A DNA stretch of 32,078 nucleotides from a virus (lineage: Duplodnaviria > Heunggongvirae > Uroviricota > Caudoviricetes). Shown piece by piece: positions 3,580-26,871 of this stretch (positions within the stretch are counted from its first letter, which is position 1; every line of letters begins with the position of its first letter). Position numbers and translations under genes: made by a program. The stretch lies in IMG/VR virus record IMGVR_UViG_3300028886_003642; one strand, 5' to 3'. Under the pieces are notes generated by a model, which saw only the letters and a list, made by a program, of their open reading frames with translations, had not been told where the DNA came from and did no database searches.

Positions 3580-4710
3580 AGGATGATTTTCATAATCTGA
3601 CATGATATCTAGTTGAAGCGTAAATTCTCCGAAGTCGTCGCCGATAAGACCAGTCAAATCTCCATCTGGCCTAATATTACACTTCCATGCCTCAATCATA
3701 AGGGCATTGCCTTGGTTTGGATCACCGAGGAACAAAAGCTCGCCAGTTATCTTACCAGCAGCAGAACCACTGACTGTTACATAACTTGCATCTGGTATCG
3801 TACAGGAAATCATTACTGTATCTCCAGCCTTAATTGCACCATCTTTCTTGATCTTAATGAGTCCACCACGAATTGACTCATCTTCAAGTACAAAGTCTTT
3901 ACCTTCTTTAAATGTACTCATACCTGCTGTCACATTAAATGTCATTATACCACTAGGTACAGTAAACATATCAGCAGGAGTTAATGTAAATGTCATTGTT
4001 ACACCTGCAACAGTTAATGTAAGAGATGTAGAACCAGCAGTACCAGTCATAGTTACATAAGTACCAGAAGCAGTAGTTAAATCTAAGGCATTAGATGCTG
4101 CTTCAATTGTGTAACCGTCAAAATCACCCGCAGTTGGTGTACCTGAGTGTGTAATTCTAAATACAAATGTAGCGTCACTTGTACCAGTATAACCAGTACC
4201 ATTAAGTACTATCTGACCACCTGCGGCATCTGTCATAGTAAGTCCATCAGCACTTACATTAGTTGCTGGAGCAAATTTAGCTTCTGGAAGTACTGCACTT
4301 GCTGGTGCTACTGCAACACCAGTTACATTTACATATCTATTACCATCTGCGTCTTTTAGCTCAATAATTCCAGGAACAGAAGGAACTGTATAAGATTCAT
4401 TTACTAGTGTAGTACCTGTCTGAACATGTACACCTTCTGTACCATATAAACCTAGAGCTAGATTATACATATTATATTCATTTAATACTATAGATCCACT
4501 TGCTTTGGTCTGCGTAGTTACTGCTGCCATTAGTTCACGTTTCTTATTCATAGAACTATATTTTTCTACAGTAGTAACATCAGTAGTTATATTAAACTCT
4601 GTGCAGTTTCCTAAAAAGTGGAGCTGATTTTCATCATCTGATCTGCGGAAATATATTCCACCAGCACCGACCATTAAATCAGCGGCTTCTGAAAACGCCT
4701 GATTTGCCAA
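3580..4710 (-). CDS. major tail (tube) protein exon 1; about 404 aa after splicing
   Basis: Tail-tube-like motifs (FLGNCTEFNIT...; IRPDGDLTGLIGDDFGEFTLQLDIM), position after head-tail genes. TTG start at 4710 lies 8 nt after AAGGAG; the track's GTG at 4719 overlaps the SD. Confidence 0.8.
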
Positions 4711-4755
4711 GTCAATCACTCCTTCTTAATTTAATATTTATGCATAAAAATTAAA

Positions 4756-5247
4756 TTACTTCTTACTTTTATACCACTCAATCTCAACAACTATTCTATG
4801 TTGAGTATTTCCAAGTGCCATTGTCTCATCTCCATCGCTTAATACAGCAAGTATATCAAATTTTACTCCAATGCTTAATTCTCTCTGTATTTTCTTTGAA
4901 AAATCATCATGTAGCACTTTTAATAATTCATTCTCAACTTTATAGCTTTGATTATATAAATATTCACTTATCGGTATATCTGGTGTATTTTCTCCTTGAA
5001 GGTATATATCAATCCAAAACTGAACTTTTCCTCCAATTATTTTATCCTGTTTTTCTACAGAGTCTTCTTCGCTAAATATTACCCAAATTGCAGGATATTC
5101 ACCAGTATTGCCTGTTCCAAACCTAAACTGTAATTCGTCCCTATGTTTTAGATATTCAAATAATCTTGAACCATCCAAATATCTATAGGAACGCATAAAA
5201 TCCACCAGCTTTTTTCCTATCTGTCTCCACATTAATTTTTGTAACAT
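4756..5247 (-). CDS. putative tail completion/terminator protein
   Basis: Position before the tail tube; YPAIWV motif; 163 aa. Confidence 0.55.
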   Translation of the reverse strand: MLQKLMWRQIGKKLVDFMRSYRYLDGSRLFEYLKHRDELQFRFGTGNTGEYPAIWVIFSEEDSVEKQDKIIGGKVQFWIDIYLQGENTPDIPISEYLYNQSYKVENELLKVLHDDFSKKIQRELSIGVKFDILAVLSDGDETMALGNTQHRIVVEIEWYKSKK

Positions 5248-10633: not shown

Positions 10634-13600
10634 TTACCAACCAACATTACGCGATACATTTTCTACTTTATGTTTATCTTTAAGCCTCATGCATAAATAT
10701 CTAGAAGCGTCCATTACGTGATCTTCTGTTTTAAGTGGACGATCTTCACCACGCAACTGAGCTTTTGAATCCCATGAATATGTATGTACTTCTTTTATAA
10801 AAAATCTACATTCATTAGATACAAATAAAGTTCTAGCTCCTATAAAAGTAGCCATAGTCCTTATACCATCTATAACAGAATTATTTGCATTTTTAGCCTT
10901 CATATGAAATCTTCTTAATTGAAGTTTAAAACTAGCAGCTGCTGGGTCAATCATTATTTCAATATCACGATACCCTTTACCAGTTAAATACTTATTTTCT
11001 TCTATAAAAGCTCTCATATCTTCTGCAAATTCTAAATCTGTTTTTTGAACGTCATAATCATTTTCCCTTCTAGCTTCTTCTCTACCAGCAAAATAATATT
11101 CTTTCACAATATATATATTACCATCAGTATCTTTACCACCAAGTAAAAATACAGTAGCATTACCAGTACCATAGTCAACACCAATGCACCATTTAATAAT
11201 TTTATCATAAGGTATTTCATTAGGATTAACTATATTTTCTCTATCAGAAAACATATCATATATTAATCCGTCTGCAACTACCCATTTCTAGCTTTACCAT
11301 ACAGGCTCTTTATCCTGTAACTAAGATTTCTCTTAGAGTTGGACTATCTCTTAACCATATCATCTAAGACTTAGGTTGTGGATTTCGTGGACTTTCACCA
11401 TATATTTATAATACTTAGGTTACTTATCTAGTCTCTAAACCTTCAAGACATTTCTATACTTGATTGGTAATTGATTAGCATTTTACAGCTTTCCAATTTT
11501 AACCCACTTTATTTTCAATTAGCTTTCGCTAAAAGGACAGCAAATGTTTACCGTCTATAAATCTTTTCTTAAAAACACCAGAATACATTGTCTTATATCT
11601 ATTTTTTACTTCTTCTGACAATGTTAAATTATCGTCCATAGTAAAATGAACATACATACCATTTTTTTCTTTTAAGTGTTTTAATACATCTTGATAAAAC
11701 CAATGATGTGGTGAAGCTGGGTTACAGCAAACCATACACTTTGATCCATCCACAGATAAACGTGCTGTAGCTTGATTAAAAAAACTTTGTGGTATTAGTG
11801 CAACTTCCAGTTATGTTATCTCTTAGGCTTTTTATCCTAAGATTCTATATGTCACCATATAGCTCGGCATATATTTTCACCATATCTATGTCCATATAGA
11901 CTTAGGTGTTGGAGACTCGTGGAAACATTATATTCTACTAACGTAGGTTCAGTTTCTATGCTCTACAATACTGAATACACTTTAGATTATTCAGTTATCT
12001 AGGTATTATCTTAAAAAGACTTCCACCTATTTTCCCCAATAATAATACAATATATTTCTATACTGCACGACAAATTTTATCAATATATAGCGCACACAAA
12101 GTGATCCCTTGGATCAAGTCTGCTGATGATTCCAATTATGTTATCGTAAAGGCTTTTTATCCTCTACTTCTATATGTCACCATATAGCTCGGCTTAAATC
12201 TTCACCATATTTAATTAAAACTTAGGTGTCGGAGTCTCGTGGAAATATTATATTCTACATAAAAATATAGGTTCAATTTCTAAGCTCTACAATACTAAAT
12301 AATTTTTAATTTATTTAGTTATCTCGGAATTTTCTATATATTCTTCATAACCTCTATGAATGTCCTGAAAATGATCATATACTGCATACATGTCATAATT
12401 ACGCTTTTTCAATCTTGCACTAAGAGTATCTTGTTTTATATTCATAATATCTGACCAATCATGAATAGTCTTAGTCTCACCATTAAACTCAACAAATCTA
12501 ACACTACACTTAATTGGTGTTTCCAATATATCCTCAACAGACCATCCACGCTCATATCTAGAACATAAAGCTCTATAAACTAATCCAAGTTTATCAGCCC
12601 ATTGCTTAAGATTATGTGTTTCACCATTATAAGTTAAAACAACATTTGATCTCATATTATTTCGTTGCTCAAATATAGTTGCCCATCTACAATTTGATGG
12701 TTCGTAGTTACCATTCACATCTATACGGTCTATGGTTAAATCATCACTATATCCACTACTCATTGCCCAATAATAAAAATTAGTGAATCCCAAAATATCA
12801 TCTAACCACTCATCACAAACTGTTATACCACGACCACCATAATGCTTATAATCTTTATTATTAACATTATAGCATCTGTGCTTCATCCTATTCCAACAAC
12901 GATATATTCTTGTATTAGACATTCCAGTTAATGGTTCCATGCTATAATACCTCCAAATAAAAATTTATAAACATATTATAACACAAAACAAAAAAGAAGT
13001 CAAGACTTTTTCCGATTTACCCCGATTATAATACATATAGTTTCCTACATGCACGACAAATCAATATCTTTAGCACCAAAAAGCCAAAATAAATTTGTTA
13101 CACCATTTTTAGTTATTTCTAAATAATTATCTGCTCTATGATCTACACAATCATATCCCATACCTAATAACATTTGCTTTAACGTATTAACTACATTCCT
13201 ACGTAATGCGCCGCTTGATCTCATTATGTTATCCTATAGGCTTTTTATCCTATAGTTCTATATATTACTATATAGCTCGGAGTACATTTTCATCATATCT
13301 AACTAAAGACTTAGATGTTGAACACTCGTGGAGATATTATATTTATTCAATCTCTACTCTCTACACTACTAACTGACCTATTCGCAATTCAGTTAGTTAG
13401 CTCGATATTGTCCTATTTTTTAAACTACACCTACGATTATTTGCTTGTTCTTTATGTGTTGCCCAAGTACAGTTTTCTTTACAATAATTGCCATTAACAT
13501 CAATTCTTTCTATAGTCGTTTCATGTTCACCAAATTCTTCTACATGTTTTAAATAAGACTCATACATGTCTTCTTTAAATTCTTCAAAAGAATTCCAAAG

Positions 13601-15303: not shown

Positions 15304-15332
15304 ATTATATCACAATTTTCTGAATTTGTCAA
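15304..15332 (-). promoter_or_regulatory. sigmaA promoter of the terS-terL-portal operon
   Basis: TTGACA-17-TATAAT. Confidence 0.75.
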
Positions 15333-15469: not shown

Positions 15470-15513
15470 TAATTAGTATAACAAAGAAAAAATAATTTGT
15501 CAACCCCTATAGC

Positions 15514-15588: not shown

Positions 15589-15662
15589 TGGTAGCAGGTT
15601 CCGAACTCGAATCGGAATTTGAAGATCATGACTCTCCCGTACTACCTTTATACTAACCTGCG
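15589..15662 (-). tRNA. atypical tRNA with CAU anticodon (Met-like), encoded CCA
   Basis: 74-nt cloverleaf; C1:U72 mismatch, loop GUCAUGA, A53:U61 T-stem, UUCGAGU T-loop. Confidence 0.7.
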
Positions 15663-15671
15663 ATTATAACC

Positions 15672-15738
15672 GTAGCAAAGGAGGCTGAACTAGTATTGCT
15701 CCGCACATAAAAGTCGCAGAACCAGCCCCAGATGCTAC
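15672..15738 (-). ncRNA. 67-nt structured element between the two CAU tRNAs
   Basis: GUAGCA/UGCUAC outer stem and GGGGCUG/CAGCCUC inner stem; no ORF. Confidence 0.45.
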
Positions 15739-15777
15739 TATACAATAAACATACATTTCTGTATGATTTTGCTAATA

Positions 15778-15854
15778 TGGTGGATCGTATTGGATTTGAA
15801 CCAATGACCTGCTGATTATGAGTCAGATGCTGCTAACCACTGAGCTAACGATCC
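15778..15854 (-). tRNA. tRNA-CAU, probably Ile2 (lysidine type) rather than Met
   Basis: GGAUCGUUAGCUCAG...CUCAUAA...GGUUCAAAUCC...CGAUCCACCA; GGA acceptor start and CUCAUAA loop resemble Firmicutes tRNA-Ile2. Confidence 0.9.
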
Positions 15855-15860
15855 ATAATA

Positions 15861-15935
15861 TGGCCTCCCTAAGATGACTCGAACATCTGATATAGGATTA
15901 GAAATCCCATGTTATATCCACTTAACTATAGGGAG
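15861..15935 (-). tRNA. tRNA-Arg(UCU)
   Basis: CUCCCUA/UAGGGAG acceptor, UGGGA-UUUCUAA-UCCUA anticodon arm, GUUCGAGUC T-loop, CCA end. Confidence 0.92.
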
Positions 15936-15947
15936 ATAATATAATAC

Positions 15948-16336
15948 TAGACACATTCATGTATCTCTGAAATACCCAAAAGAATATTTGCTGTCTGTGC
16001 CTATTTATTTTACTAGATCCCATTAAAAAGATAATCAGTCTTTAATTATGTTTTAGAAATATATTATTGCTGAAAGGATCTACTATAATTTCTTAATCGT
16101 ACTAGACTCATCAAAACTTAGCTGTTTCCCATTAACGCATATATTTTTGCTGTCAGAATCTACTAAGTCTGCAAGACACATATAAAGTATTCAAATTAAC
16201 AGTTTGAGCTTTTTATTTGCTGTTCGTGTCTTATAAGAGGTGATAAAATGTTGAATTTAAGGAGAAACGAGACACATTTGAAAAAGTAAAATTGGCATAT
16301 TAAGTATTTTCTTCTGTATTTGCTGTTTCGTGTCTC
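15948..16336 (-). repeat. array of five hairpin RNA units with conserved CAGCAA motif (15948-16003, 16014-16082, 16103-16162, 16173-16232, 16269-16336)
   Basis: Each unit: 7-bp closing stem (e.g. GAGACAC/GUGUCUC, UAGAUCC/GGAUCUA), a 3-4 nt linker, CAGCAA(A/U), a variable region, then AUG leading into the 3' stem strand. Stems covary between units. Confidence 0.85.
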
Positions 16337-16348
16337 AACTATGTTTAT

Positions 16349-16377
16349 ATTATAACATAAAATAGGAGGATTGTCAA
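16349..16377 (-). promoter_or_regulatory. sigmaA promoter immediately upstream of the hairpin array/tRNA operon
   Basis: TTGACA-17-TATAAT with TG extension and an A-rich upstream tract; predicted +1 about 5 nt before the first unit. Confidence 0.8.
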
Positions 16378-16425
16378 GCTATTTTTTTTATTTTTTTCTT
16401 CAAGTCCATTCCCCAAGAGGTTTTC

Positions 16426-17982
16426 CTACAATACCTTATCTACTACTGCATATCTTTCTTTATTTAAAACATTTACTAATGCTTTATATGGGTCTAATTC
16501 ACTACTCATTACCATTTCCATAAGTGACTGACTGAATCCACTCAGCAAAATCACTCCTGCTTTACTTTCAGTTAATGGAATAGTATTAGTTCTTGAGTTT
16601 ACATTCCAAAAGATTAATTTTGGAAGTTCATACCCTGCTTTTTCATATTTCTCTGCTATACACTCAAAAAGTACTTCATCTTCTTGAGCAATTGCTTCAT
16701 GATCCCAATCATATGACCAAACATTACCACTTCTTACTGCATCATATTCCATATCACTCAAAATCAATATGCTTTTAGGCATATCATCTTGTGTAGCTTT
16801 TGCTTTAACTGCTGTCTCTAAAATGAGATCAAATACTGCTTCAATATTTGTATTAGAGCAATCAGCATATTTATGCAAATATGTGAGCTTATCTGCAAGA
16901 CTTTCTTTACCATTAACATCTACAATTTGAGGCTTTGAACTAAAAGTGATAAACTTATTATGATACTGACCTTCACTATTTTCTGCACAGTATAATGTTA
17001 ATGCATCAGCTACATCCATTGCAGTTGCACTAGAATTAGGAATATTACAAGTCATTGAACCTGAACCATCACGAACTACCAATGTGTTCTTGAAACCAAT
17101 TACTTTTTCTTGTGCTTTCCACAATTCTTCTAAAGTAGCATCTTCTTTATATTTTGGCTCATACCAAAAATCAATACCACTAGTATACTTATGTACAATA
17201 TCATGTAAAAACAGTGCTTTAGCGTTAATCTTTACAGACTTATCGCCATTAGCTAAATTATTGAGATATTCTTCTCTACGCTCTGCATCATGCTTGAAAA
17301 ATGCATTTGCATATTTAAGATTAGCACAAGATGGAACTTTGCAGTAATCAATTTCTGACCATTGATTAGCTGAAGTCTTAACTTCTACAACATCAAGATA
17401 TTTACGAAGTTTACTAAGCATCTTACGATACTGTTTTGGTGAAACTTTAAATACTTCTTTTGCAAGTTTATTAGCTACCCTTCTTGTTTCTTTACTAGAA
17501 GTTGAAATTGAAGGAAGCCATTTTGCACATAATGAAATATTTTCACCTCTACTCATAGCCTCTAAATCAATATTGATTATAGCACTAAGAGTCATGGCAA
17601 TCATATTCTTTACGTTTTTATCTTTTACATTATCCCAAAGCCATACATAATCATCCCATCTACCATATTCAGCAATGTTAATATGATCTAGAAACTTTAA
17701 TGCTAACTTTGGATGCTTATTGAAAAGATGAAGTGCAAATTCTCTGAATGACTTTCTTTCTCCTGCTCCTCCACGAACATCACGTAAGAATAAAAGCCAT
17801 TTAAGTGCTAAAGCCTTATCCTCTGCAAAAGCTTGATCAAACAAATCTAAATCTGCTTTTGCTCTGTAACTTGGAATACCAAAGTTTAAGTCTACAAGTT
17901 TTTTACCTGTAGATTTATAACCTAAAGCTCCATTCTCTGTTACAGATTTTTCATTTTTCTCTAATTCGTTCATGAAATCCAT
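16426..17982 (-). CDS. DUF2828-family protein (TROVE/Ro60-like helical domain plus vWA domain)
   Basis: TENGALGYKSTG, LRDVRGGAGER, EYGRWDD, AKWLPS, IDYCKVPS, vWA MIDAS-like VVRDGSGSM, ILSDMEYD, LIFWNV, LSGFS; AGGAGG RBS. Confidence 0.88.
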   Translation of the reverse strand: MDFMNELEKNEKSVTENGALGYKSTGKKLVDLNFGIPSYRAKADLDLFDQAFAEDKALALKWLLFLRDVRGGAGERKSFREFALHLFNKHPKLALKFLDHINIAEYGRWDDYVWLWDNVKDKNVKNMIAMTLSAIINIDLEAMSRGENISLCAKWLPSISTSSKETRRVANKLAKEVFKVSPKQYRKMLSKLRKYLDVVEVKTSANQWSEIDYCKVPSCANLKYANAFFKHDAERREEYLNNLANGDKSVKINAKALFLHDIVHKYTSGIDFWYEPKYKEDATLEELWKAQEKVIGFKNTLVVRDGSGSMTCNIPNSSATAMDVADALTLYCAENSEGQYHNKFITFSSKPQIVDVNGKESLADKLTYLHKYADCSNTNIEAVFDLILETAVKAKATQDDMPKSILILSDMEYDAVRSGNVWSYDWDHEAIAQEDEVLFECIAEKYEKAGYELPKLIFWNVNSRTNTIPLTESKAGVILLSGFSQSLMEMVMSSELDPYKALVNVLNKERYAVVDKVL

Positions 17983-17995
17983 TAAAAATTCCTCC

Positions 17996-18056
17996 TAGAC
18001 TGCATTGCATTTAAAAATTTCAAGTTTTTACTGTTAAATTTGCTGAGTTCAGCCTA
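17996..18056 (-). promoter_or_regulatory. sixth CAGCAA hairpin unit in the 5' leader, abutting the DUF2828 RBS
   Basis: UAGGCUG-AACU-CAGCAAA...AAUG-CAGUCUA, whose last A is the first base of AGGAGG. Confidence 0.8.
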
Positions 18057-18156
18057 AATATTGAGAAATTTAAGAGAGCAATTTATTTCCCAACAATTTT
18101 CTGAATTTTACAGCCTAAAGCATCAAGAGAGCAATTTAGCTTTAAGCCATACTCAT

Positions 18157-18349
18157 ATTATATCACATCTGCCAAGCCTTGTCAACTAATTTTTTTTATA
18201 AAATGTAAATATTTTTTGCTCCGTATGTGATTATAACCCTATTATAACACAACTGAATTGATTTGTCAAGTATTTTCTGAAAATTTTTCAAAAAATATCT
18301 AAACTCAAGCTTGCCCATATAGTATAACACAATTTGAACAATTTGTCAA
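18157..18349 (-). promoter_or_regulatory. three tandem consensus sigmaA promoters toward the DUF2828 gene
   Basis: TTGACA-17-TATAAT (18157-18185, 18241-18269) and TTGACA-17-TATACT (18321-18349). Confidence 0.75.
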
Positions 18350-20228: not shown

Positions 20229-20386
20229 TGATAGAAAATGGTAAAGCAAGTATGTCATCAACTCTTCAAATAAGGATTCCTCTACATTTGAGAAAGAAAT
20301 TTAGCGAAGTAGCAAATAAAAATAACGAAACTCCTGCTAGACTTATCAGAGAATTTATTCATAAATACATTGCAGAGAATCAATAA
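20228..20386 (+). CDS. ribbon-helix-helix (CopG-like) protein, 52 aa, missed by the ORF track
   Basis: MIENGKASMSSTLQIRIPLHLRKKFSEVANKNNETPARLIREFIHKYIAENQ; TGATG coupling to the upstream gene. Confidence 0.75.
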   Translation: MIENGKASMSSTLQIRIPLHLRKKFSEVANKNNETPARLIREFIHKYIAENQ

Positions 20387-20700
20387 CCCACGACTAAAGT
20401 CGTAGGCTTGTAAAAAAAGCCTTTATTGATTAGCCTAAGTGCTTTGAACACTACGTTACTCAAGAATATATAGGCACTTCAGAACGTGAGTCCAAATTCT
20501 GAACCCTGCGGTTTATAGTTAAACAACTCTGAGAGGTAGGAGTAGTGTTGTAAACATACAAAACCTTGAGATAACATTGGCTATGGACAACTTACCTCCC
20601 TTTGGGGGAGAGTTATTCCCTGCTATGATAGGGAATTATGATTATTATTTAAGGAGATATAGTGGACATTCATTCACCAACTAAAGAAGGTGGTATCCTG
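20379..20700 (+). mobile_element. non-autonomous IS200/IS605-type IscB element: omega (HEARO-like) RNA scaffold without iscB
   Basis: ATCAATAACCCACGACTAAAGTCGTAGGCTTG left end; ATTAGCCTAAGT...CACTACGTT...TAGGCAC...CTGCGG...TTAAACA...GAGAGGTAGG...TAACATTGGC scaffold; degenerate right end ATTCATTCACCAACTAAAGAAGGTGG. Confidence 0.85.
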
Positions 20701-25174: not shown

Positions 25175-25334
25175 TTTTTGTGGAAATTGGAGAAATAATG
25201 TATTCTCGTCCTGTTGCTATTAAAATAATAAAGAAAAATCCTAATGGCTCATACGTTATTCAGTATTTAGCAACAGGCAAAAAAGAAATTCTTACTGAAA
25301 TTGAACTTTTTCGTAAATTTCAGCCAAGATACTC

Positions 25335-25363
25335 TTGACAAATAGGGCAGTATGTGCTATAAT
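25335..25363 (+). promoter_or_regulatory. sigmaA promoter
   Basis: TTGACA-17-TATAAT. Confidence 0.7.
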
Positions 25364-25592
25364 TTTAGTATGATGAAGGAAAGGGGATATGCTTCATGTT
25401 ATACTTATTATATATCACTACTGCTCTTATTTTATTTACTTATTTTTTGGATAAGAGTAGACATATCTATGTTCGTATTTTCAGTTTTTATGCTAGTATT
25501 GGATGCAGTGTAGAAATGATATGTAAAATGTATGGCTTTTATTAACTTTTCGGCAAGTTTTCTATTTTTGCCAATATGCTACGGAGGTTTGC

Positions 25593-26645
25593 ATGAGAAA
25601 AATATATAATACTAATCAAGGAATTGACATTTATATTGATTTACTTGAAACTAGCTATCACGACCCAGAAACACAAAAATGGCTTTGGGATAAAGCTAAA
25701 GTAGTGTATAGCGGTCTTAATACTTCTCCACTTATGTTTTTAGATAATAAAGTAACCATTGGTTGGGAAGATGACGGACATATTTGCTTTGATTCAGATT
25801 GTCCAGTGTTTAATATTCTTTATTTTGAGATTCTTTTGCGTGACGGACAAAGTTTACTACAAAAGATTCAGAAAATTTCAGAAAAGGGGTGATACTTTTG
25901 CAAGAATCTATTAGATTTCAGTTAAAAGAATTGGAGAAAATGGCATTAGATCCAGAGCGTGAAGAACTTCAGAAAAAAGTTTCTCAATTTGTAGTAGACT
26001 CATTAAATAAATTAGAAGAACTTCAGATTGACCCTATGTATTCTACACAACTTCTTTCTGTTTTAGCTTCTGGCTATCCTGTAGTAACTTTAACAGAAGA
26101 TAACGCTAAGTGGAAAATGAATGAAACAGGAGATTTAGAACATTTTCTTTGCAAGCATGTAATTAAAAGAAATGATCAAATATTCAATACATTAGGCTAT
26201 GTATTTTTTGAGCCAGAAAGTGATAGAGGATTTACGGATAAAACTTACAGTATGAAGAAATTAGAGCTTCCTTGTCCTGCAACAGCATTAAATCCTGTAT
26301 ATTTACAGCTTAAATATAAATTGAATGAAAAATCTCTTGAAGATCAAGTAAAAACACTAATTGATTACAAACAGGCTAAAGAAACAGAGAATGAACATAT
26401 TAGAGAAACGTGAACTTGCTAAAGTTATCATTCAATACAATAAGGGCAACTTAGAACCTTTTAATGATATTACTAAAAAACATTGCCCTTCTGTATTTGA
26501 TTTACCTTGTGCTTGCTCTGATGGAAAAATTACTTGTAAGGGTAACTGTATTCTTTGTTGGAGTTTTGCTTTACGTGAATTTGCTTTTAATAATTTTGGA
26601 GTGGACTTAAATGAAATCAAACCAATGTCGAGAGCTATTGTATAA
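25593..26645 (+). CDS. three coupled hypothetical ORFs (25593-25892, 25889-26413, 26361-26645)
   Basis: Overlapping starts and stops; the last has a Cys cluster (CPSVFDLPCAC...CKGNCILCW). Confidence 0.6.
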
Positions 26646-26871
26646 TGTATTAGTCAAAACATCAAATATTGAAGATATGGAAAAACTTCTTTCTTCTTTG
26701 TGTTCTGAGTCTGAACTAGATAAGATGGCACAAAGACTAAAAGTTGCTAAAATGTTTTTGGAAGGTGCTAAATATAGAGATATAGTAAAAGAGACTAATG
26801 CTAGTACAGCAACTTTAGCTAAGATTAAATTTGACTTATTTTATGGGAAGAAGGGATTAGTAAATGTTTAA
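26611..26871 (+). CDS. YerC/YecD-like TrpR-related HTH protein
   Basis: LSSLCSESELDKMAQRLKVAKMFLEGAKYRDIVKETNASTATLAKI. Confidence 0.82.
   Translation: MKSNQCRELLYNVLVKTSNIEDMEKLLSSLCSESELDKMAQRLKVAKMFLEGAKYRDIVKETNASTATLAKIKFDLFYGKKGLVNV

What the first reader, a model, noticed from the sequence alone, without database searches (positions are those of the whole stretch)
15948..18056. Variable loops of the CAGCAA units look like tRNA anticodon stem-loops (possible anticodon-nuclease decoys or sensors)
Seen (minus strand): the leader unit has UAAAAA-CUUGAAA-UUUUUA, unit 16173-16232 has UCAAA-CUGUUAA-UUUGA, unit 16014-16082 has AAAGA-CUGAUUA-UCUUU and unit 15948-16003 has GUAU-UUCAGAG-AUAC. 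All are 4-6 bp stems closing 7-nt loops that begin pyrimidine-U. Established: CUUGAAA and CUGUUAA are the standard loops of tRNA-Ser(UGA) and tRNA-Asn(GUU); CUGAUUA is one base from Ile(GAU) CUGAUAA; UUCAG resembles Leu(CAG). The other two units carry weaker CAGCUAA (Ser GCU-like) and AUGCCAA (Gly GCC-like) without clean stems. Inference: a common protein-binding scaffold displays a panel of different anticodon mimics, which could titrate or detect host anticodon nucleases (PrrC/RloC/VapC/PARIS-type defences).
Basis: partly seen in the sequence, partly recalled or inferred. Interest (0 to 1): 0.88.

Follow-up and report, generated by a model that had tools for sequence, protein, structure and literature searches.

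The report
Phage Y-like RNAs displaying anticodon arms
Six small RNA genes around a Ro60-shaped phage protein gene share one constant "handle", and at least two of them display an exact copy of a tRNA anticodon loop. This design recurs far above chance in hundreds of related phage RNAs and may serve as bait in fights over tRNA, though that function is untested.

Summary
All four hairpins are in the sequence as written. U0 (CUUGAAA) and U2 (CUGUUAA) carry loops identical to real tRNA-Ser(UGA) and tRNA-Asn(GUU) loops. U4 and U5 are weaker and lie within chance.

In 201 independent homologous units from other phages, 33 have a stem of 5 bp or more closing a YU-NNN-RA loop, against 2.8 in shuffles. 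27 have a loop identical to a real tRNA anticodon loop, against 0.55 in shuffles. These loops are biased to Lys(UUU), Asn(GUU) and Ser(UGA).

The decoy or sensor function is untested. A homologue, Bas63 gp130, counters the Ppl defence, and RtcB sometimes lies next to the gene.

I found no Rfam family and no paper describing this RNA family. This scan has noted the same family before on other DNA (at least 52 genomes).

The parts
18157..18269 (-). Two perfect sigma-70-type promoters (18269-18241 and 18185-18157; TTGACA, 17-nt spacer, TATAAT, with TG) that would drive the leader, U0 and the DUF2828 gene
   Evidence: 12 of 12 matches each. Consensus matches only; no transcript data.
17996..18056 (-). 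U0, the leader unit. Handle: stem UAGGCUG/CAGUCUA, spacer AACU, box CAGCAA. Its 3' arm abuts the Shine-Dalgarno AGGAGG, 13 nt before the ATG.
   Evidence: R1 37.1 bits, E 5.5e-06. Units ending within 30 nt of the start codon recur in 20 of 141 distinct gene contexts.
18012..18030 (-). Anticodon-arm mimic in U0: 6-bp A-U stem and loop CUUGAAA, identical to the tRNA-Ser(UGA) loop
   Evidence: Forms as the minimum-energy fold only if the box is kept unpaired (probability 0.33). Probability 0.02 in free folding.
16426..17982 (-). 518-aa DUF2828 + DUF7788 protein with a Ro60-like fold (helical-repeat ring plus vWA domain with the DGSGSM MIDAS motif)
16349..16377 (-). Perfect promoter directly after the gene's stop codon. 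It would start the U1-U5 plus tRNA transcript a few bases before U1.
16269..16336 (-). U1: handle GAGACAC/GUGUCUC, GAAA, CAGCAA. The variable part has a 13-nt loop containing AUGCCAA. No anticodon-type hairpin.
   Evidence: (46 bits)
16173..16232 (-). U2: handle AAGACAC/GUGUCUU, GAA, CAGCAA, with an anticodon-arm mimic at 16191-16207 (5-bp stem, loop CUGUUAA = tRNA-Asn(GUU) loop)
   Evidence: 43.2 bits; probability about 0.55; about 0.75
16103..16162 (-). U3: handle UAGAUUC/GAGUCUA, UGA, CAGCAA. The variable part has a 4-5-bp stem with a 6-nt loop AGCUAA. Not anticodon-arm geometry.
   Evidence: (41.6 bits)
16014..16082 (-). U4: handle UAGAUCC/GGAUCUA, UUU, CAGCAA. Candidate arm at 16027-16043 (AAAGA-CUGAUUA-UCUUU). 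Position 37 is U, and a competing 7-bp hairpin is more stable.
   Evidence: 42.6 bits; probability 0.03-0.05. The same loop on a different 6-bp stem occurs in L024 2017-2103.
15948..16003 (-). U5: handle UAGGCACA/UGUGUCUA, GA, CAGCAA. Candidate arm at 15961-15975 (GUAU-UUCAGAG-AUAC, 4 bp) is weak and out-competed.
   Evidence: 44.7 bits; probability 0.09-0.16
15589..15935 (-). Three tRNA genes directly downstream on the same strand: Arg(tct) 15861-15935, Met(cat) 15778-15854, Met(cat) 15589-15662

Best explanation
The six units are genes for small (about 55-70 nt) Y-RNA-like RNAs.

Each has a constant handle. The handle is a 7-8-bp terminal stem formed by the two ends, about 3 spacer bases, a single-stranded CAGCAAW box on the 5' side, and an unpaired G after the 3' arm. 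This handle is most likely the docking site for the neighbouring Ro60-fold DUF2828 protein (inferred).

U0 sits in the protein's own mRNA leader against the ribosome-binding site, so bound protein could throttle its own translation (inferred). U1-U5 are made from a strong promoter together with three tRNAs and would be released by processing (inferred).

The variable top of the RNA is a cargo slot. Across the family it holds a bare anticodon arm, a YrlA-like permuted tRNA body, a tRNA body without its acceptor ends, or other sequence (shown). In this window U0 and U2 carry anticodon arms with the exact loops of tRNA-Ser(UGA) and tRNA-Asn(GUU). U4 is a near miss, and U1, U3 and U5 are not mimics.

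Most likely use (inferred, about 1 in 3): the ribonucleoprotein offers anticodon loops to host factors that attack or read tRNA anticodons, and so baits or traps tRNA-directed defence nucleases.

The confidence given is for the structural reading (partner RNAs of the Ro60-like protein that mimic tRNA anticodon arms), not for the bait function.
For: Handle:
- 95% of cells pair and 8 of 8 pairs show double changes in 39 seeds.
- Covariance model R1 gives 194 matches at E <= 0.01 in 95 DUF2828 loci, all on the gene's strand.
- R1 also matches in Staphylococcus, Bacillus, Listeria, Enterococcus, Campylobacter, E. coli (Bas63) and Mycobacterium phages.
- 47 of 117 loci fetched by RNA pattern alone hold the gene in the fetched stretch, on the same strand wherever seen. 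A further 6 of 9 sampled records hold it elsewhere.

Protein:
- The MIDAS residues are invariant.

tRNA mimicry:
- 33 units versus 2.8 in shuffles for YU-NNN-RA loops; 27 versus 0.55 for exact tRNA loops.
- Reversed-pattern controls are depleted.
- Arms are conserved while flanks diverge, with one compensatory change and one G34-to-U Asn-to-Lys switch.
- Mimic stems are 21% GC against 56% in real tRNAs, and none equals a real tRNA stem, so they are not fresh tRNA fragments.
- Long units contain cores that hit Rfam YrlA (32 bits, E 6e-5) or the tRNA model.

Conflict context:
- Bas63 gp130 counters Ppl.
- The Lys and Asn bias matches PrrC and AriB targets.
- RtcB lies beside the gene in CKA15/A511, L129 and L174.
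- CKA15_055 is Rsr-like by HHpred and was found in virions.
Against:
- Only 2 of the 6 window units are canonical mimics.
- U0's arm is all A-U and is improbable in free folding.
- In the closest relative (98% identical protein, L001) the leader loop reads C-AUUGAAA-A in a 9-nt loop. The exact arm is therefore not strictly kept.
- Only about 15-25% of short units in the family carry an anticodon arm.
- The Ppl mechanism is unknown. Its describers propose DNA degradation, not tRNA cleavage.
- AriB reads the anticodon stem and distal tRNA parts, which the AU-rich mimic stems do not copy.
- The Pfam TROVE model does not match the protein.
- The canonical Y-RNA motif is absent.
Confidence: 0.6

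Rival explanations
1. tRNA repair or quality-control platform rather than decoy. As proposed for Ro60/Y RNA encoded with RtcB in bacteria, the ring protein and its tRNA-like RNAs would help recognise, protect or repair damaged phage or host tRNAs, or recruit tRNA-handling enzymes. The anticodon arms would then be recruitment modules, not bait.
For: - RtcB is 1.3 kb downstream of the gene in CKA15/A511, directly adjacent in L129, and in an rtcB-unit-gene order in L174.
- Canonical rsr-yrlBA-rtcBA linkage and induction by damaged tRNAs are published (PMC7790460, listed; PMC7824862).
- Long units share the YrlA tRNA-like core.
- Units sit inside tRNA arrays: 92 of 117 pattern-fetched loci hold tRNA genes.
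Against: - No RtcB-like sequence is present in this window.
- RtcB was seen in only 6 of about 250 loci, though the flanks were short.
- A bare anticodon arm is a poor handle for most repair enzymes.
- The role of YrlA in repair is itself unproven.
Confidence: 0.25
2. Handle-only function. The RNAs act solely through the handle, for example as titrators or autoregulators of the Ro-like protein. In this window the variable tops are drifting filler whose likeness to anticodon arms is chance or a fading relic.
For: - Four of the six window units lack a credible arm.
- Leader units in some relatives have only 9-12 variable bases and so no room for an arm (L006 2451-2486, L008 2455-2486).
- The variable region differs even from the 98% relative.
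- Handle positions change in 0.5-1% of compared sites, against 11-15% in variable parts.
Against: - Exact tRNA loops on stems of 5 bp or more are about 50 times over chance in independent units.
- The window's two loops are among the three commonest types.
- Arms are conserved where flanks diverge.
- The stems are not copies of tRNA stems.
Confidence: 0.15
3. Processing or stability elements of the tRNA operon. The terminal stems would pair leader and trailer segments to guide RNase cleavage or protect transcripts, with no dedicated protein partner.
For: - Units are interspersed with tRNAs.
- One handle encloses a complete tRNA (L150 4671-4786, holding a 67.5-bit tRNA at 4696-4768).
- No terminator-like sites occur in the region.
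Against: - It does not explain the invariant single-stranded CAGCAA box.
- It does not explain the tie to DUF2828 genes across distant phages, including Veillonella-type loci (mostly Veillonella genome and MAG contigs) with no tRNA genes nearby (0 of 66 such loci).
- It does not explain the leader copies at the ribosome-binding site.
Confidence: 0.05
4. Translation interference. Free anticodon arms would compete with tRNAs on ribosomes, T-box leaders or aminoacyl-tRNA synthetases to skew host translation.
For: Only the mimicry itself and the general knowledge that isolated anticodon stem-loops can bind ribosomal decoding sites in vitro (own knowledge).
Against: - No acceptor end is present and the AU stems are weak.
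- Nothing in the context points to ribosomes.
- It does not explain the Ro-like partner.
Confidence: 0.03

Closest known systems
Ro60/Rsr with Y RNAs: bacterial and phage YrlA/YrlB (Rfam RF02553; Chen et al. 2014, PMC4201824) and Thermus phage phiLo Ro60 with Yrl1/Yrl2 (PMC12135203)
   Same: - A ring plus vWA protein.
- Small RNAs encoded beside it on the same strand.
- A terminal stem made by the two RNA ends, with a conserved motif on the 5' side.
- A variable upper module that in YrlA mimics tRNA.
- Long CAGCAA units hit the YrlA core.
- Occasional linkage to RtcB.
   Different: - The protein belongs to other Pfam families (DUF2828/DUF7788, no TROVE match; 11-16% identity to Ro60).
- The handle motif is CAGCAA, not GNCGAA or GGUCCGA.
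- No Rfam model reaches threshold.
- The units are much shorter.
- The mimic is often the anticodon arm, the one tRNA part that YrlA lacks.
Escherichia phage Bas63 (JohannRWettstein) gp130, bioRxiv 10.1101/2024.10.10.617714
   Same: - Same protein family: 32.8% identity over 96% of the query (H69; L135 2959-4374).
- Its authors noted the Ro60-like fold.
- It lies beside a tRNA array.
- R1 finds a CAGCAA unit between its tRNA genes (L135 4877-4938, E 6e-4).
   Different: - The only datum is a knockout phenotype against the Ppl defence.
- Its RNA partners were guessed to be among the tRNAs and were not identified.
- Its two candidate units show no anticodon arm.
Phage-encoded tRNAs that neutralise tRNA-targeting defences (T5 tRNA-Lys/Thr/Asn against PARIS AriB, PMC11464382 and PMC12409363)
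   Same: - Phage RNA answers to anticodon-directed nucleases.
- Lys(UUU) and Asn(GUU) are prominent in both.
- The authors raise possible inhibition by competition.
   Different: - Those are complete, decoding tRNAs that replace cleaved host tRNAs.
- The units here lack the acceptor, D and T arms and cannot decode.
- No nuclease link has been shown for them.
Dictyostelid Class I RNAs (Kjellin et al. 2021, PMC7919456)
   Same: - About 60 nt long.
- A short covarying stem joins the two ends.
- A conserved, mostly unpaired 11-nt motif lies next to the 5' arm, followed by a variable remainder.
- The paper's conserved positions (T3, C6, C9, A10, A11) fit a motif ending CAGCAA as I recall it (own memory).
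   Different: - They are eukaryotic, have their own promoter element, and their known binder is an RRM protein.
- No Class I RNA match appeared among the Rfam matches listed for the window's units at E <= 10.
- Homology is untested. The lead came from earlier notes of this scan.

Membership tests
Ro60 / TROVE proteins | Helical-repeat ring followed by a vWA domain, over the full length | tested here: met
Ro60 / TROVE proteins | MIDAS motif (DxSxS ... T ... D) in the vWA domain | tested here: met
   D305, S307, S309, T378 and D410 are invariant in 30 homologues. The sequence reads DGSGSM.
Ro60 / TROVE proteins | Sequence match to the Pfam TROVE model (PF05731) or to solved Ro60 chains | tested here: not met
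   Pfam gives only DUF2828 and DUF7788, plus vWA_Ro60 at 18 bits, below its 27.7 cut-off. A profile search of PDB sequences finds no Ro60.
Ro60 / TROVE proteins | Binds a Y RNA stem on the outer ring surface | not testable with these tools
   Needs RIP-seq, EMSA or a structure.
Y RNA / YrlA (RF02553) | Terminal stem formed by the 5' and 3' ends, conserved by covariation | tested here: met
   (the seeds were chosen for pairing, so percent paired is circular; the double changes and the slide controls are not). Strand-locked matches.
Y RNA / YrlA (RF02553) | Encoded next to the Ro60-type gene on the same strand | tested here: met
   194 of 194 R1 matches lie on the gene strand. 118 of 141 distinct gene contexts have an upstream unit.
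Y RNA / YrlA (RF02553) | Ro-binding motif GNCGAAN0-1G (bacteria) or the GGUCCGA bulged helix (animals) | tested here: not met
   The conserved box is CAGCAA, invariant in A2. CGAA occurs by chance of sequence in U1 and U2 only.
Y RNA / YrlA (RF02553) | Rfam covariance model at or above the gathering score | tested here: not met
   No match in the window even at E <= 10. Long relatives reach 32 bits against a cut-off of 69, over the core only.
Y RNA / YrlA (RF02553) | tRNA-like T arm, closed acceptor stem and D arm | tested here: not met
   Absent from the six short window units. Present in long family members such as L143 11241-11341, L150 5337-5459 and L163 3369-3484.
tRNA anticodon stem-loop (mimicry criterion) | 5-bp stem and 7-nt loop with U33 and purine 37, the loop identical to a real tRNA loop | tested here: met
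   Met by U2 (5 bp) and U0 (6 bp). Not met by U4 (U37), U5 (4 bp, no identical real loop), U1 or U3.
tRNA anticodon stem-loop (mimicry criterion) | The hairpin is predicted to form | tested here: inconclusive
   U2 yes. U0 only with the box held unpaired. U4 and U5 no. Needs probing.
   with the window lineage excluded.
Dictyostelid Class I RNA | Terminal stem, adjacent conserved unpaired motif and variable rest, about 60 nt | tested here: inconclusive
   The architecture matches the paper's description. The motif letters come from memory. No Class I RNA match was listed in the Rfam search at E <= 10.

The most novel reading that the evidence does not exclude
A Ro60-like ring protein and its handle-bearing RNAs form a modular display system. 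Phages would use it to present bare anticodon arms (mainly Lys, Asn and Ser types) as RNA bait that traps or saturates tRNA-targeting immune nucleases. The specificity could be retargeted by a single base change in the loop, as in the Asn-to-Lys switch between L166 and L208.
Probability: 0.3. Interest if true: 0.9.

Novelty: new variant of a known kind. Interest (0 to 1): 0.78.

Why it matters
**Ro60 and Y RNA biology.** The role of the tRNA-like part of bacterial Y RNAs is an open question. This family offers hundreds of natural variants of one scaffold carrying different tRNA pieces, down to a bare anticodon arm. That points at the anticodon loop as the working surface and makes the question testable.

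**Phage-bacteria conflict.** tRNA cleavage is a widespread bacterial defence, and the known phage answers are replacement tRNAs and repair enzymes. An RNA bait displayed on a protein would be a third kind of answer.

**Orphan protein family.** The DUF2828 "RNA-binding protein" family occurs in 710 phage records. This work supplies its likely RNA partner. In Listeria phage CKA15 the homologous protein is found in virions.

**Tractable test system.** E. coli phage Bas63 has a gp130 knockout with a defence phenotype, so the idea can be tested there.

Tried and rejected
- **Rfam.** At gathering score and at E <= 10, no family covers the units.
- **PDB by sequence.** A profile search gave nothing useful.
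- **Pooled substitution counts.** These first suggested that arms are no better conserved than flanks. Inspection showed the pool was dominated by a Veillonella cluster whose 'arm' (loop UUAUUGA) is a chance match, plus junk alignments. In the true arm clusters the arm is conserved. I rely only qualitatively.
- **Pattern-fetched locus L138.** It lies in a complete 265-kb genome without the protein. It has no R1 match and no TROVE gene, so I read it as a chance pattern hit. Such hits dilute the enrichment rather than inflate it.
- **CKA15_059-061.** I asked whether this hyper-abundant non-coding region of Listeria phage CKA15 consists of CAGCAA units. It does not. The units lie at record positions 25288-25554, and the paper's text does not give coordinates that would show their expression.
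- **Other readings.** I considered and dropped a CRISPR-like array or REP/MITE repeat (the copies differ, covary, are strand-locked to a gene and are conserved across phyla of hosts) and intrinsic terminators (none found).
- **Complex prediction.** Not used, because an RNA cannot be the partner chain.
Full report
**What is there**

On the minus strand of 15948-18056 lies a 518-aa gene (16426-17982), with one hairpin unit in its leader (U0) and five behind it (U1-U5). Three tRNA genes follow.

Each unit begins with a 7-8-base arm, about three spacer bases and CAGCAA. It ends with the complement of its own arm. The arms differ between units but always pair.

CAGCAA on this strand occurs six times in these 2.1 kb, each time in the same register. 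Perfect consensus promoters stand before the leader and directly before U1. No terminator-like site was found.

**The scaffold is a real RNA family, not in Rfam**

No Rfam family matches the units, even at E <= 10.

A simple scan found the same design beside DUF2828 genes in unrelated viral contigs. I aligned 39 diverse units:
- the seven stem pairs pair in 95% of cells;
- every pair shows changes on both sides;
- sliding the partner destroys pairing;
- CAGCAA and an unpaired G after the 3' arm are invariant.

Because I chose the seeds for pairing, the stronger evidence is independent of that choice:
- The covariance model R1 finds 194 matches at E <= 0.01 in 95 loci fetched through the protein. 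All 194 are on the gene's strand.
- R1 also finds units next to the gene in Staphylococcus, Bacillus, Listeria, Enterococcus, Campylobacter, E. coli and Mycobacterium phages.
- In the window's own 40.5-kb provirus record it finds only these six.
- A pattern scan for one stem variant alone returned at least 117 viral loci. 47 of them held the gene in the fetched piece, on the same strand wherever seen. Six of nine sampled others held it elsewhere in the contig. The one complete genome without the gene had no model-level unit.

**The protein is Ro60-like**

- Pfam gives DUF2828 plus DUF7788 and a sub-threshold Ro60-vWA match. PHROGs gives 'RNA-binding protein'.
- The MIDAS residues are invariant.
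- The family is in 710 phage records, some annotated 'Ro-like RNA binding protein'.

Published data on homologues:
- Listeria phage CKA15_055 matches Rsr by HHpred and was detected in purified virions. Its authors suspected nearby Y RNAs.
- R1 places three units directly upstream of CKA15_055.

**The anticodon-arm claim**

Using 817 distinct tRNAs from the related loci, CUUGAAA and CUGUUAA are indeed the standard Ser(UGA) and Asn(GUU) loops. CUGAUUA is one base from Ile(GAU) but never occurs in a real tRNA.

The set was 201 distinct short units (95 nt or less, de-duplicated on the variable part), excluding the window's lineage and its near copies. Controls were dinucleotide shuffles.

| Measure (stems of 5 bp or more) | Observed | Shuffle mean | Shuffles reaching observed |
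|---|---|---|---|
| 7-nt loops of any sequence | 100 units | 53.5 | 0 of 400 |
| Loops fitting YU-NNN-RA | 33 units | 2.8 | 0 of 400 |
| Loops fitting CU-NNN-RA | 26 units | 0.63 | 0 of 400 |
| Loops identical to one of 69 common real tRNA loops | 27 units | 0.55 (maximum 5) | 0 of 400 |

- Loop sizes 3, 4, 5, 6, 8 and 10 are not enriched.
- Reversed patterns are depleted.
- 9-nt loops are also enriched, partly because some arms have a mismatched closing pair.

The mimicked loops are not a random draw. Lys CUUUUAA occurs 8 times, Asn CUGUUAA 5 times and Ser CUUGAAA 4 times. These counts are over-represented against tRNA-gene frequency (p = 2e-6, 0.007, 0.014) and against base composition (8e-6, 4e-5, 9e-4).

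The stems are AU-rich (21% GC against 56% in real tRNAs), and none equals a real tRNA stem. The arms therefore copy shape and loop, not a gene fragment.

In related unit pairs the 17-nt arm stays intact while flanks diverge. One pair shows a compensatory stem change. In one lineage a single G-to-U change turns an Asn loop into a Lys loop.

**Bigger cargo in relatives**

Units of 100-130 nt carry tRNA parts inside the same handle.
- Some have a T arm, a closed acceptor hairpin and a D arm in the permuted order of YrlA. Rfam's YrlA model hits their cores at 32 bits (E 6e-5), below its cut-off because the handle differs.
- Others hold a D arm, anticodon arm and T arm without acceptor ends, or even a complete tRNA.
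- A rough motif count over 271 distinct units gave 220 with neither T nor D motifs (40 of these with an arm). 11 were permuted, 4 were in tRNA order and 35 had a T arm only.
- Units sit in tRNA arrays. 92 of 117 pattern-fetched loci hold tRNA genes, as do 43 of 66 protein-fetched loci that are not of the Veillonella type.

**This window in that light**

- U2 is a clean member: 5 bp, an Asn loop, and pair probability 0.55-0.75.
- U0 has the Ser loop on six A-U pairs. It folds that way only if the CAGCAA box is kept unpaired (0.33), as it would be if protein-bound.
- U4 and U5 are out-competed by other hairpins and fail the strict pattern. U1 and U3 are not mimics.
- In the 98% relative the leader loop reads C-AUUGAAA-A. 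The UGA triplet is kept on a changed stem, but the geometry is altered.

**How it most likely works**

Shown:
- the scaffold and its link to the gene;
- the Ro60 fold;
- the enrichment and conservation of anticodon arms.

Inferred:
- the protein binds the handle;
- U0, whose 3' arm touches the Shine-Dalgarno sequence, gives feedback control (units ending within 30 nt of the start codon recur in 20 of 141 contexts);
- U1-U5 are cut from a joint transcript with the tRNAs.

The purpose of displaying anticodon loops is open. Bait for tRNA-directed nucleases fits three things:
- the Lys/Asn bias, since these are PrrC and PARIS AriB targets;
- the anti-defence phenotype of Bas63 gp130;
- the phage setting.

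A repair or quality-control role fits the RtcB linkage seen in CKA15/A511, L129 and L174 and the bacterial rsr-yrlA-rtcB precedent. I rate bait at about 0.3 and repair or recruitment at about 0.25.

**Comparison and novelty**

This works like a Ro60/Y-RNA particle with tRNA mimicry. It fails three membership tests: the Pfam TROVE model, the Y-RNA motif and the Rfam model. I therefore file it as a new variant of a known kind.

I found no paper describing the RNA family.

Earlier notes of this scan describe the same family in at least 52 other genomes, and they supplied the lead to dictyostelid Class I RNAs. The paper's description of that class fits the architecture, but homology is untested.

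**Limits**

- There are no expression or binding data for this window.
- Units are de-duplicated but not phylogenetically independent.
- The unit finder requires CAGCAA at a fixed offset and a stem of 7 bp or more, so variants are missed.

Noticed in passing
window 18072-18085 and 18125-18138: Two exact copies of AAGAGAGCAATTTA on the + strand. In the leader RNA these read UAAAUUGCUCUCUU. Each sits in a hairpin loop upstream of U0 and is complementary to the AGCAAAUUUA of U0's box region. This could be an RNA switch or a competitor site for the box.
   Followed up: no
window 20379-20595 (+): Full-length HEARO (IscB omega-type) RNA, 135.9 bits. It lies between small ORFs, and no large nuclease ORF follows in the ORF list.
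   Followed up: no
L150 4671-4786: A CAGCAA handle encloses a complete tRNA (67.5 bits at 4696-4768). The handle here pairs the tRNA's leader with its trailer.
   Followed up: partly
L166 (-) 13253-13313 and L200 versus L208: Orthologous units differ by one G-to-U change at the wobble position of the arm. This turns the Asn loop CUGUUAA into the Lys loop CUUUUAA on an unchanged stem.
   Followed up: partly
L260 (Listeria phage cka15) 6346-7557 and 7875-8378; L129 697-1896; L174 4449-5543 (-): RtcB RNA ligase (Pfam E 4e-60) and a NADAR-domain protein lie downstream of the Ro-like gene in cka15 (A511 has the same RtcB). RtcB is directly adjacent to the gene in L129, and in an rtcB-unit-gene order in L174.
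   Followed up: partly
L260 about 1990-2500 (cka15 record 26,236-26,727): This region is reported to give up to about 67% of phage transcripts (PMC12282133). It has no R1 match and no Rfam family. It is an unexplained abundant non-coding RNA about 1 kb upstream of the Ro-like gene.
   Followed up: partly
L210 1566-2154 (-), L210 5993-6103 (-), L248 10659-10772, L143 189-254: ROOL RNA (332 bits), skipping-rope RNA, drum RNA and cow-rumen-4 RNA lie in the same phage tRNA arrays that hold CAGCAA units.
   Followed up: no
alignment A2, column 84 (first base after the 3' arm): An unpaired G directly after the 3' arm is invariant in all 39 seeds. It may be part of the handle or a processing mark.
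   Followed up: no
L135 4877-4938 and 5332-5403 (Escherichia phage Bas63): Candidate CAGCAA units (E 6e-4 and 0.087) lie between annotated tRNA genes just downstream of gp130. These would be the RNAs to test in the one phage that has a knockout phenotype.
   Followed up: partly
window 15304-15332 and 15475-15503 (-): Two more perfect or near-perfect consensus promoters lie downstream of the tRNAs and before terS. They imply further small transcripts there.
   Followed up: no
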